The notes beneath the pieces were generated by a model, which did not search any database, was not told the DNA's origin, and worked only from the letters and a program-made list of their open reading frames with translations. A program made the translations under genes and the position numbers. Shown piece by piece: positions 42,680 to 43,824 of a stretch of 64,000 nt of DNA. The stretch lies in the NCBI RefSeq assembly GCF_003334385.1, contig NZ_QOWN01000010.1. The stretch is one strand, 5' to 3'. Each line of letters begins with the position of its first letter. The first letter of the stretch is position 1. The stretch comes from Escherichia coli (GTDB lineage: Bacteria; Pseudomonadota; Gammaproteobacteria; Enterobacterales; Enterobacteriaceae).

Positions 42680-43753
42680 TTAGTGACCAATCATTGGCGC
42701 TTGTGGAATTAAGCGTCGGTACAATTCCTCCGGCACCGGGCTTTGCCATACTCCCGCATACATTGCGTAACCAATCACCGCAAACATAATCCCCAGAACC
42801 AGTAGCGTCATTAACCAGCCAGACAACGCAAAGGCTTTTTTATTTGCCGCAGGTTTTTGCAGTGAAAAGGTCAATGTTGAGGCTACCGGACATGACTCTA
42901 CGCAAGTCATACAGCCGGTACATTCCACTGTTCGTACCTGAATTAATTTATCGACCGGGATCCGTGATGGGCAATTTTTTGCGCATTTGCCACAGTCGAT
43001 ACAACTTTCGGCATTGCGACGAATCTTAAACGGCGACAATAGCGAAACCACGCCCATCAGCGCGCCATATGGGCAAAGATAACGACACCAGGCATGGCGA
43101 ATAAACAGGCTGGCAATCAGCAAAACGGTCACGCTGATTAATGTCGCGGTCCCCATATGACGAAAGAAATCGAGCATTTTAACGTCCATCACCACGCTGT
43201 AGGGCGACAACATAAAATAGTGAATCGCCTGAGCGGGCATCAATAACGCGATATAGATAAAAAAACTCAACAGCAAATACTTCACGCCGCGCAGAGGAAT
43301 ATCCAGCCAGCGGGGAAGGACACATTGCCGACCAAACAGTTTGTTACCGAGATCGCCGATTAATTCAGAAAGCGTACCAACCGGGCATAACCATGAGCAA
43401 AAGGCCTTTTTGAGTAATAGACTGATGACGATAAAAGCGACCAATAACAGCATCGCGGCGGCGTGGACGGACGGTAACTGACCTGTTACAAGGCTATATT
43501 TCAGATTCATCAGCCCGGCAATCGGTAGCCAGCCTTCGATACCTCCCGGTCTGGCGACAAATGTCGTGCTACTTGCCGTTTCGTAATAGCGCACCCAATA
43601 CCAGAACGTGATGGCAATATAAATATTCATTGCCAACAGTAATAATTGCGTCGCTTTACGCCAGGTCGTGGCATTACGCCAGTCATTCCACGGTAATTTG
43701 CCGCCCGTCGTGCCTGGCCGCCGCTGCCAGCGGGTTCTTTTATTCTCTGCCAT
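42680..43753 (-). CDS. yccM: NapH-like membrane polyferredoxin YccM (two 4Fe-4S motifs)
   Basis: 357-aa ORF with CIDCGKCAKNCP and CTGCMTCVESCP plus CSWLCP / CRYLCP motifs and transmembrane segments. Confidence 0.92.
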   Translation of the reverse strand: MAENKRTRWQRRPGTTGGKLPWNDWRNATTWRKATQLLLLAMNIYIAITFWYWVRYYETASSTTFVARPGGIEGWLPIAGLMNLKYSLVTGQLPSVHAAAMLLLVAFIVISLLLKKAFCSWLCPVGTLSELIGDLGNKLFGRQCVLPRWLDIPLRGVKYLLLSFFIYIALLMPAQAIHYFMLSPYSVVMDVKMLDFFRHMGTATLISVTVLLIASLFIRHAWCRYLCPYGALMGVVSLLSPFKIRRNAESCIDCGKCAKNCPSRIPVDKLIQVRTVECTGCMTCVESCPVASTLTFSLQKPAANKKAFALSGWLMTLLVLGIMFAVIGYAMYAGVWQSPVPEELYRRLIPQAPMIGH

Positions 43754-43824
43754 GATTTTGCCAGTCCGTTAAGTTGTATACCAAATGCCACTATTCTAGT
43801 TGTTCTTAACTGGCTGATATTGAT

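What the first reader, a model, noticed from the sequence alone, without database searches (positions are those of the whole stretch)
42680..43753. Orphan NapH-like polyferredoxin yccM beside the tor locus
YccM has two ferredoxin-type CxxCxxCxxxCP motifs (CIDCGKCAKNCP, CTGCMTCVESCP) plus two CxxxCP motifs and several transmembrane segments, the NapH/MauN architecture. No nap or other redox partner gene is adjacent; it sits alone between gnsA and torS on the same strand as torS. Its electron donor and acceptor are undefined, and coupling to the TMAO respiratory system is a hypothesis.
Basis: partly seen in the sequence, partly recalled or inferred. Interest (0 to 1): 0.35.

Follow-up and report, generated by a model that had tools for sequence, protein, structure and literature searches.

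The report
NO-stress membrane polyferredoxin YccM
The gene is E. coli yccM, a real but uncharacterised membrane iron-sulfur electron carrier. Its control sequences and its neighbours in distant bacteria tie it to defence against nitric oxide, not to the TMAO respiration genes beside it.

Summary
Window 42680-43753 (-) encodes the 357-aa YccM, with five predicted membrane helices, two CxxxCP motifs and two CxxCxxCxxxCP motifs; all 12 cysteines are invariant in 87 homologues. It resembles NapH but scores below every curated cut-off (NapH, NapH/MauN, NosR, CcoG) and has an extra fifth helix and a conserved periplasmic tail.

The TMAO idea is not supported. torS adjacency occurs only in Escherichia, one Escherichia lineage deleted the tor genes but kept yccM, and TorR boxes occur only at torC.

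yccM has its own promoter carrying an NsrR (nitric-oxide repressor) operator. This is the best NsrR-like site in the 64-kb window, and 41 of 48 Enterobacterales orthologues keep such a site in at least six different genomic contexts. NsrR binding in vivo is already published.

In Acidobacteria, homologues lie beside RIC/YtfE, hemerythrins, Hcp and qNOR, and share a Crp/Fnr-type box with them. In another clade they follow Rrf2 regulators and sit next to qNOR.

Best reading: a nitrosative-stress electron-transfer protein, possibly the missing reductant of di-iron YtfE/hemerythrin proteins. That last step is inferred only.

The parts
42680..43753 (-). yccM coding sequence (357 aa plus stop): five-TM membrane polyferredoxin
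   Evidence: ORF; annotated yccM in E. coli genomes; Pfam 2x Fer4_5 plus a dicluster domain; AlphaFold pLDDT 94.2
43382..43399 (-). first CX3CP motif, CSWLCP (residues 119-124), cytoplasmic end of TM2
   Evidence: Cys119 and Cys123 invariant in 87 homologues
43070..43087 (-). second CX3CP motif, CRYLCP (residues 223-228), cytoplasmic end of TM4
   Evidence: Cys223 and Cys227 invariant
42968..43003 (-). first [4Fe-4S] ferredoxin motif, CIDCGKCAKNCP (residues 251-262)
   Evidence: invariant cysteines; matches solved ferredoxin domains
42887..42922 (-). second [4Fe-4S] ferredoxin motif, CTGCMTCVESCP (residues 278-289)
   Evidence: invariant cysteines
42683..42820 (-). YccM-specific C-terminal extension absent from NapH: fifth TM helix (about residues 312-333) and a 24-residue periplasmic tail ending in a conserved His (often His-Pro in homologues)
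   Evidence: the NapH profile stops at residue 299; helices 312-333 and 342-354 in the model; W336, P341, P350 and H357 invariant among 14 orthologues; the ...H-P ending recurs in distant representatives
43771..43793 (.). NsrR-type 11-1-11 operator; reads TAGTGGCATTTGGTATACAACTT on the minus strand and ends 17 nt before the yccM ATG
   Evidence: 18.7 bits with a matrix built from 9 other NsrR sites; the single best site in the 64-kb window, next best 11.5. Conserved upstream of orthologues. Published NsrR ChIP-seq/ChIP-chip peak here (PMC5320621)
43793..43798 (-). candidate -10 hexamer TAGAAT abutting the NsrR operator
   Evidence: read from the sequence. The same position holds TAGAAT, TAGCAT, TACAAT or TAGGAT in Escherichia, Citrobacter, Intestinirhabdus and Providencia. 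The generic promoter scan did not call it, and the transcription start is not mapped here
43820..43833 (.). conserved FNR-like box GCGATTTGAATCAA (xxGAT-N4-ATCAA), 21 nt upstream of the -10 and overlapping the torS stop codon; binding factor unproven
   Evidence: same box at the same distance in Escherichia, several Citrobacter, Intestinirhabdus and Providencia (GTGATGCAAATCAA); background 0.15 per 200 nt. Against it: no FNR ChIP peak, predicted FNR site or fnr-dependence for yccM in Myers 2013

Best explanation
YccM is a stand-alone inner-membrane polyferredoxin of the NapH/NosR/RdhC/CcoG superfamily that belongs to the nitric-oxide (nitrosative) stress response, not to TMAO respiration.

Shown or strongly supported: it has five TM helices. 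All of its redox cysteines face the cytoplasm, namely two CX3CP motifs at the membrane surface and a 2x[4Fe-4S] ferredoxin domain. It is transcribed from its own promoter, whose start region is covered by an operator for NsrR, the NO-sensing [4Fe-4S] repressor, so NO damage to NsrR should derepress it. It is about 3-fold higher anaerobically.

Inferred: the membrane module exchanges electrons with the quinol pool, as proposed for NapH. The Fe-S chain then passes them to a soluble cytoplasmic acceptor. The acceptor I think most likely is a hemerythrin-type di-iron protein: YtfE/RIC in E. coli, and RIC or single-domain hemerythrins elsewhere. YccM would keep that protein in the di-ferrous state it needs for nitrite/NO chemistry or iron donation during Fe-S repair.

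My estimates for the separate steps: NO-stress regulon membership about 0.8; generic membrane-to-cytoplasm electron transfer about 0.75; di-iron protein as the acceptor about 0.3.
For: Regulation in Enterobacterales:
- The NsrR-type operator at 43771-43793 scores 18.7 bits with a matrix that excludes yccM. It is the best site in 64 kb.
- 41 of 48 Enterobacterales orthologue loci have a site of >=13 bits within the 330 nt upstream window, against a background of 0.011 per window. In 42 of 48 it is the best site in the ~13-kb locus.
- This holds in at least six unrelated contexts: torS, cbpM, a GGDEF gene, rnpB, icd-side and mgtE.
- NsrR binds here in vivo in CFT073 and K-12 (PMC5320621).
- yccM is about 2.9x higher anaerobically, similar to hcp-hcr (PMC3688515 Table S12).

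Acidobacteria, which use a different regulator family:
- 11 of 24 loci carry RIC, hemerythrin, Hcp or qNOR within 6 kb.
- Identities: RIC 232-239 bits against a cut-off of 204.7; Hcp 779 against 367; qNOR 814 bits to solved qNOR; hemerythrin by Pfam PF01814.
- A GTGAC-N4-GTCAC box lies upstream of yccM in 13 of 24 loci. The same box lies upstream of RIC, hcp and the adjacent Crp/Fnr gene.

Other clades:
- In a distant metagenomic clade, an Rrf2 regulator lies within 1 kb upstream in 9 of 61 loci.
- There are rrf2-yccM-methyltransferase-qNOR and rrf2/hemerythrin-yccM-qNOR arrangements, and hemerythrins in four loci.
- One locus has an rrf2-yccM operon with overlapping start and stop.
- In Providencia sp. 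UBA10704, ytfE lies 173 bp downstream.

Background from papers:
- The physiological reductant of YtfE is unknown and 'likely a ferredoxin' (PMC9052748).
- NapH's first Cys motif is needed to interact with the cytoplasmic Fe-S protein NapF, a precedent for a cytoplasmic partner (PMC5928378).
Against: - The CFT073 ChIP-seq peak is weak (2.24-fold). yccM is not among the 19 NsrR targets whose expression changed more than 1.5-fold with nitrate-derived NO.
- Most homologue loci show no informative neighbour: 13 of 24 acidobacterial loci and 41 of 51 metagenomic loci of at least 5 kb.
- No Salmonella, Klebsiella, Enterobacter or Yersinia orthologue appears among the best 120 protein clusters or the best 80 genome loci. 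By my own recollection, not checked here, those genera have ytfE/hcp/hmp. If so, YccM cannot be an obligatory YtfE partner.
- The published knockout phenotypes are heat, blue-light and multi-stress sensitivity, not NO-specific.
- Quinol oxidation by this module and the chemistry of the CX3CP motifs are unproven even for NapH/NosR.
- No interaction or activity data exist.
Confidence: 0.55

Rival explanations
1. General Fe-S or redox-homeostasis electron carrier. YccM would be an Rrf2-controlled membrane ferredoxin that supplies or drains electrons for repair of damaged metal centres under many stresses (heat, oxidants, light). NO would be only one inducer, and there would be no dedicated di-iron partner.
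For: The adjacent Rrf2 regulators pass only the superfamily model and score similarly against the IscR, SufR, RirA and NsrR models. Keio yccM mutants are thermosensitive, with plasmid complementation, and are hypersensitive to blue light and several oxidative stressors. Most loci are solitary.
Against: The enterobacterial operator matches the NsrR 11-1-11 consensus specifically and is bound by NsrR in vivo. The recurrent non-regulatory neighbours are NO-specific enzymes: qNOR, Hcp and RIC.
Confidence: 0.15
2. CcoG-like metal reductase. YccM would use its cytoplasmic Fe-S clusters to reduce Cu(II) to Cu(I), or another metal ion, for export or cofactor supply, as shown for CcoG of Rhodobacter.
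For: A review names YccM as a CcoG homologue lacking the periplasmic Ig-like domain (PMC7558416). Both have five TM helices, cytoplasmic clusters and a C-terminus outside. The predicted periplasmic loop 3 holds 5 Met and 2 His, and the tail ends in a conserved His.
Against: The CcoG model scores only 33.9 bits against a cut-off of 316.7, and only over the membrane module. The neighbour survey of about 170 loci found no recurrent copper-homeostasis or cbb3-oxidase family among the gene families it clustered and annotated. Most of the Met and His residues in loop 3 are not conserved.
Confidence: 0.12
3. NapH-like quinol dehydrogenase serving a periplasmic partner encoded elsewhere, for example a NapG-like ferredoxin or the Nrf/Nap systems.
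For: NapH is the best family match, 93.5 bits over residues 30-299. The periplasmic loop GWLPIAGLMN and the C-terminal tail are highly conserved, which suggests a functional periplasmic face.
Against: The scores are far below the NapH and NapH/MauN cut-offs. The neighbour clustering found no recurrent NapG-like or nap family next to the gene. All redox cysteines are predicted to be cytoplasmic. By my own recollection, not checked here, E. coli has its own napGH.
Confidence: 0.1
4. One reading: YccM is an accessory electron-transfer component of the TorCAD TMAO respiratory system.
For: It lies 71 bp downstream of torS on the same strand, with no terminator-like hairpin on that strand between them. 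torS, torT and yccM all rise about 2-3x anaerobically.
Against: Adjacency is found only in Escherichia. The tor genes were deleted while yccM was kept in Escherichia sp. E1V33. Citrobacter, Providencia, Pectobacterium, Pragia and others have yccM without neighbouring tor genes. TorR boxes lie only at torC. yccM has its own NsrR-controlled promoter. The annotated tor locus already includes the pentahaem cytochrome TorC, which by my own knowledge is the electron donor to TorA.
Confidence: 0.03
5. Component of the sulfur-relay / tRNA 2-thiolation system, a database label repeated in one paper.
For: PMC5828445 lists yccM under 'sulfur relay system' and notes thermosensitivity like that of tus mutants.
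Against: No experimental link is given there. The neighbour clustering found no recurrent tus, mnmA or iscS family. The family relatives are respiratory or redox membrane proteins.
Confidence: 0.02

Closest known systems
NapH (quinol dehydrogenase ferredoxin subunit of periplasmic nitrate reductase; NF007013, TIGR02163 NapH/MauN)
   Same: Four-TM membrane module with two CX3CP motifs, followed by a cytoplasmic domain with two CxxCxxCxxxCP [4Fe-4S] motifs. It is the best-scoring curated family, aligning over residues 30-299.
   Different: The scores are 93.5 and 87.4 bits against cut-offs of 234 and 213. YccM adds a conserved basic N-terminal segment, a fifth TM helix and a conserved periplasmic tail. 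It is never found in a nap operon or beside napG. It is regulated by NsrR rather than as part of nap.
CcoG/FixG/RdxA cupric reductase (TIGR02745)
   Same: Five TM helices, cytoplasmic 2x[4Fe-4S], CX3CP-type module and a C-terminus outside. It acts on a small cytoplasmic-side substrate rather than within a fixed respiratory complex. A review calls YccM a CcoG homologue.
   Different: 33.9 bits against a cut-off of 316.7. YccM lacks the periplasmic Ig-like domain. The neighbour survey found no recurrent cco/cop family.
NosR / RdhC (PceC) membrane flavo-Fe-S proteins
   Same: They share the 4-TM plus 2x CX3CP module, and NosR also has the C-terminal polyferredoxin. NosR serves a nitrogen-oxide reductase.
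   Different: 75 bits against a cut-off of 1000 for NosR. YccM has no periplasmic FMN-binding domain and is half the size.
Hcr and FrdX, the dedicated reductases or ferredoxins of the hybrid cluster protein in NO regulons
   Same: This is the closest analogy for how YccM may work: an NsrR- or HcpR-controlled electron donor encoded with, or co-regulated with, an NO-stress metalloenzyme (PMC1274295).
   Different: By their descriptions in that paper (an NADH oxidoreductase and a ferredoxin-like protein) they are unrelated soluble proteins. YccM is membrane-integral and usually unlinked to its presumed partner. I did not compare their sequences here.

Membership tests
NapH / NapH-MauN family | Membrane module with two CX3CP motifs plus two C-terminal 4Fe-4S ferredoxin motifs | tested here: met
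   Motifs at residues 119, 223, 251 and 278; Pfam 2x Fer4_5 plus a dicluster domain
NapH / NapH-MauN family | Score at or above the curated NCBIfam cut-off (NF007013: 234; TIGR02163: 213.05) | tested here: not met
   93.5 and 87.4 bits
NapH / NapH-MauN family | Encoded with napG / a nap or mau operon | tested here: not met
   No nap or mau genes within 12 kb in E. coli. The neighbour clustering of about 170 homologue loci found no recurrent nap/mau family
NapH / NapH-MauN family | Four TM helices with both termini cytoplasmic | tested here: not met
   Five TM helices and a predicted periplasmic C-terminus. The NapH topology itself is taken from the literature cited
CcoG/FixG/RdxA cupric reductase | Score at or above the curated cut-off (316.7) | tested here: not met
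   33.9 bits, membrane module only
CcoG/FixG/RdxA cupric reductase | C-terminal periplasmic Ig-like domain | tested here: not met
   Only 24 residues follow TM5; the review says the same
CcoG/FixG/RdxA cupric reductase | Cu(II) reductase activity | not testable with these tools
   Needs purified protein
NosR | Curated cut-off (1000 bits) and an N-terminal periplasmic FMN-binding domain | tested here: not met
   75.2 bits over the shared module only; no FMN-binding domain in Pfam
NsrR regulon (Enterobacterales) | 11-1-11 NsrR operator in the promoter, conserved in orthologues | tested here: met
   18.7 bits and best in the window; 41 of 48 orthologue loci at >=13 bits against 0.011 expected
NsrR regulon (Enterobacterales) | NsrR occupancy in vivo | not testable with these tools
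   Published: a ChIP-seq peak centred at -36 of yccM in CFT073, also found by K-12 ChIP-chip (PMC5320621). Enrichment was modest, 2.24x
NsrR regulon (Enterobacterales) | Derepression by NO or in an nsrR mutant | not testable with these tools
   Not found in the searchable literature. yccM is absent from the list of targets changed more than 1.5x by nitrate-derived NO in CFT073
TorR regulon / TMAO respiratory system | TorR boxes (CTGTTCATAT repeats) upstream | tested here: not met
   Exact boxes only at 48364-48426, before torC; none near yccM
TorR regulon / TMAO respiratory system | Conserved linkage with tor genes | tested here: not met
   Only 4 of 5 Escherichia loci; absent from all other genera; tor deleted in E1V33
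YccM-type polyferredoxins (uncharacterised 'electron transporter YccM' group) | Full-length similarity: 12 invariant Cys, conserved periplasmic loop 1, fifth TM and a C-terminal W...H(P) tail | tested here: met
   AFDB50 neighbours with TM 0.85-0.97 are all unnamed or 'YccM'

The most novel reading that the evidence does not exclude
YccM-type proteins are a widespread, previously unassigned class of membrane-anchored reductases for hemerythrin-type di-iron proteins. They would draw electrons from the quinol pool to re-reduce YtfE/RIC and single-domain hemerythrins during nitrosative stress. In E. coli, YccM would then be the long-sought physiological electron donor of YtfE.
Probability: 0.3. 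Interest if true: 0.7.

Novelty: new variant of a known kind. Interest (0 to 1): 0.5.

Why it matters
yccM is present in essentially every E. coli genome and still has no assigned function. Thousands of homologues across phyla are equally unnamed, and no member of the whole NapH/NosR/CcoG membrane module has a solved structure.

Placing YccM in NO-stress regulons gives it a concrete physiological setting. Those regulons are run by three different kinds of regulator: NsrR, Crp/Fnr-type and other Rrf2 proteins.

It also makes an open question directly testable with a few E. coli mutants and one reconstitution assay: what supplies electrons to YtfE/RIC, whose reductant was described as unknown in 2022.

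Finally, it removes a tempting but false guilt-by-association link to TMAO respiration.

Tried and rejected
- **TMAO coupling.** Rejected on synteny, the tor deletion in E1V33 and the absence of TorR boxes.
- **First AlphaFold run.** With 14 sequences it was useless (pLDDT 43.7). It had to be repeated with 87 sequences.
- **Context of the 50%-identity representatives.** Most sit on contigs of 1-3 kb and gave nothing. Longer ones were mostly solitary genes in housekeeping neighbourhoods.
- **The acidobacterial membrane protein F34.** I guessed it was NnrS, but neither NCBIfam nor Pfam matches it. I dropped the guess.
- **FNR activation.** A conserved FNR-like box exists. The Myers 2013 supplements list no FNR ChIP peak, predicted site or fnr-dependence for yccM. 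It is kept only as an unexplained conserved element.
- **Expression data in nsrR mutants.** The Filenko 2007 and Partridge 2009 papers are not held, and two supplements held nothing.
- **Burkholderiales MAG loci.** They show only parB and atp neighbours.
- **The generic promoter/terminator scan.** It did not call the yccM promoter.
- **CRP-type TGTGA-N6-TCACA search.** It was not informative beyond one locus. The GTGAC-N4-GTCAC form was the informative one.
Full report
**1. The observation**

The ORF at 42680..43753 (-) encodes 357 aa. It contains CSWLCP (119), CRYLCP (223), CIDCGKCAKNCP (251) and CTGCMTCVESCP (278). The region is present in 5408 of 5426 complete E. coli genomes and is annotated yccM, '4Fe-4S binding protein'. 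The annotated gene order around it is cspG-ymcF-ymcE-gnsA, then yccM, then torS-torT-torR-torCAD-cbpM-cbpA. Pfam finds two Fer4_5 modules and a dicluster ferredoxin domain.

**2. What kind of protein it is**

The best NCBIfam matches are all far below their curated cut-offs:

| Family | Score (bits) | Cut-off (bits) |
|---|---|---|
| NapH | 93.5 | 234 |
| NapH/MauN | 87.4 | 213 |
| NosR | 75 | 1000 |
| CcoG | 34 | 317 |

YccM therefore shares the superfamily module but is not a member of any characterised family.

More than 7900 proteins match at E<=1e-10. In a library clustered at 50% identity, 491 clusters match at E<=1e-30. In an 87-sequence alignment reaching down to 29% identity, the 12 motif cysteines, P77, G126, R224, P228 and G230 are invariant.

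Among orthologues, three further features are conserved. They are the periplasmic loop GWLPIAGLMN (74-83), a basic N-terminal segment, and a C-terminal tail with W336, P341, P350 and H357. The terminal His-Pro recurs in distant representatives.

AlphaFold with the deep alignment gives pLDDT 94.2 and pTM 0.91, with five long TM helices. K+R counts are 9, 5 and 12 on one side against 2, 2 and 2 on the other. This places the N-terminus and all conserved cysteines in the cytoplasm and the C-terminal tail in the periplasm.

No solved structure matches beyond the ferredoxin domain. AFDB50 neighbours with TM 0.85-0.97 are all unnamed or labelled 'YccM'.

**3. The tor neighbourhood is incidental**

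- torS lies upstream of yccM only in four of five Escherichia species loci.
- Several Citrobacter species and Intestinirhabdus have cbpA-cbpM directly upstream of yccM with no tor genes.
- Escherichia sp. E1V33 retains only a frameshifted torD remnant between cbpM and yccM. It keeps yccM and a promoter-region sequence closely similar to the window's.
- Providencia (rnpB upstream), Pectobacterium, Pragia/Budvicia/Limnobaculum (mgtE) and the C. freundii group (a GGDEF gene) each place yccM in a different context.
- Exact TorR boxes occur only at 48364-48426, before torC.

**4. The promoter**

A paper search showed that NsrR ChIP-seq in CFT073 and ChIP-chip in K-12 place a peak in the yccM-torS intergenic region, with an 11-1-11 site (PMC5320621).

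I built a matrix from nine other NsrR sites. With it, the window site at 43771-43793 scores 18.7 bits and is the best in all 64 kb; the next best scores 11.5. Across 48 Enterobacterales orthologue loci, 41 have a site of at least 13 bits in the 330-nt upstream window, against a background of 0.011 per window. In 42 loci it is the top site of the ~13-kb locus.

In Escherichia, several Citrobacter, Intestinirhabdus and Providencia the architecture is the same:

1. an xxGAT-N4-ATCAA box;
2. a 21-22 nt spacer;
3. a TAnnAT hexamer;
4. the NsrR operator;
5. 16-19 nt to the ATG.

The FNR-like box is a conserved element without a proven factor. The Myers 2013 supplements list yccM only as about 2.9x higher anaerobically (ratio 0.34, compared with 0.43 for hcp). 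They do not list it as FNR-bound or fnr-dependent.

One caveat applies. The ChIP enrichment is modest (2.24x), and yccM was not among the targets changed more than 1.5x by nitrate-derived NO in CFT073.

**5. Homologues in other phyla point the same way**

*Acidobacteria.* In 24 acidobacterial loci, 11 carry NO-stress genes within 6 kb. Four arrangements recur:

- yccM - Crp/Fnr - Hcp - RIC
- qNOR ... yccM - Crp/Fnr - RIC
- Crp/Fnr - yccM - cysE - qNOR - membrane protein - RIC
- yccM - hemerythrin - radical SAM - Crp/Fnr - RIC

The identities rest on curated cut-offs for RIC and Hcp, on solved qNOR structures for qNOR (814 bits), and on Pfam for hemerythrin.

A GTGAC-N4-GTCAC box (at most one mismatch; 40 hits in 251 kb) lies 40-230 nt upstream of yccM in 13 of 24 loci. 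The same box precedes RIC, hcp, the Crp/Fnr gene and a conserved membrane protein. There, yccM is thus co-regulated with RIC and hcp by a different regulator family.

*A distant metagenomic clade.* These loci are 39-53% identical to P0161; P0161 itself is 39% identical to E. coli YccM. An Rrf2 regulator lies within 1 kb upstream in 9 of 61 assessable loci. qNOR is adjacent in two loci, and hemerythrins appear in four. A separate locus has an overlapping rrf2-yccM operon.

*Providencia.* One Providencia genome has ytfE 173 bp downstream of yccM.

Most loci, however, are solitary.

**6. Mechanism**

The shared module is thought to oxidise quinol in NapH. NapH's first Cys motif is needed to hold the cytoplasmic Fe-S protein NapF (PMC5928378). 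With all YccM clusters on the cytoplasmic side, the simplest model is electron flow from the quinol pool to Fe-S clusters to a soluble cytoplasmic acceptor.

The most recurrent non-regulatory neighbours are hemerythrin-type di-iron proteins. E. coli YtfE, a major NsrR target, has an unknown reductant that is 'likely a ferredoxin' (PMC9052748). I therefore propose YtfE/RIC-type proteins as the acceptor. This step is inference only.

The rivals are ranked in the rival-explanations section: a general Fe-S/redox carrier, a CcoG-like metal reductase, a NapH-like donor to a periplasmic partner, TMAO coupling, and sulfur relay.

**7. Novelty**

The gene, its motifs and NsrR binding are already on record. 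The 2005 comparative reconstruction of NO regulons does not mention yccM. Across the 28 papers that mention yccM, I found no function assigned beyond database labels.

Three things appear to be new here. The first is the cross-genus conservation of the operator. The second is the independent association with NO-stress genes and regulators in two other lineages. The third is the specific reductant hypothesis.

I rate this a new variant of a known kind, of moderate interest.

Noticed in passing
L066:5032-6369 (+); L078:6976-8427 (-); L082:10606-11991 (+): A conserved polytopic membrane protein of 445-483 aa sits next to RIC or qNOR in acidobacterial yccM loci. In L082 it is preceded by the same GTGAC-N4-GTCAC-type box (one mismatch). 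It has no NCBIfam or Pfam match, so it may be an unnamed NO-regulon membrane protein.
   Followed up: partly
window 43820-43833: An FNR-like box (GCGATTTGAATCAA) overlaps the torS stop codon. It is conserved at the same distance from the -10 in Escherichia, Citrobacter, Intestinirhabdus and Providencia, where it reads GTGATGCAAATCAA. Published FNR ChIP-seq in K-12 reports no peak here, so the binding factor is unknown.
   Followed up: partly
L007:5460-5899: Escherichia sp. E1V33 carries only a frameshifted torD remnant between cbpM and yccM. The tor locus, from torS into torD, has been deleted in this lineage.
   Followed up: yes
L148:2326-7106; also L108, L116, L139, L149: A class I SAM-dependent methyltransferase lies immediately downstream of the YccM homologue on the same strand in five metagenomic loci. 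In L148 the order is rrf2 - yccM - methyltransferase - qNOR. Its best NCBIfam match, a glycine/sarcosine N-methyltransferase model, scores 106 bits against a cut-off of 350, so its role is unknown.
   Followed up: partly
L066:2300-3565 (-); also L065, L071, L072, L082, L137, L164: A TIGR04053-family radical SAM/SPASM protein (487 bits against a cut-off of 395), related to the haem b synthase AhbD, recurs beside the hemerythrin gene and the YccM homologue.
   Followed up: partly
window 43150-43240 (YccM residues 172-202) and 42683-42754 (residues 334-357): The predicted periplasmic loop 3 holds 5 Met and 2 His in 31 residues. D190 and M193 are nearly invariant family-wide, as are H97 and W336, and the protein ends in a conserved His. 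A periplasm-facing site for metal, quinone or a partner protein is possible but untested.
   Followed up: no
L001:7299-7672: In Providencia the gene upstream of yccM is the RNase P RNA (Rfam RF00010, 333 bits). This shows how unrelated the orthologue contexts are.
   Followed up: yes
L012:4344-5783 and the C. freundii-group loci L014-L024, L058: A 479-aa GGDEF diguanylate cyclase with an unassigned N-terminal sensor region lies directly upstream of yccM on the same strand. In this group the NsrR-like box sits at about -76 and overlaps the FNR-like box.
   Followed up: no
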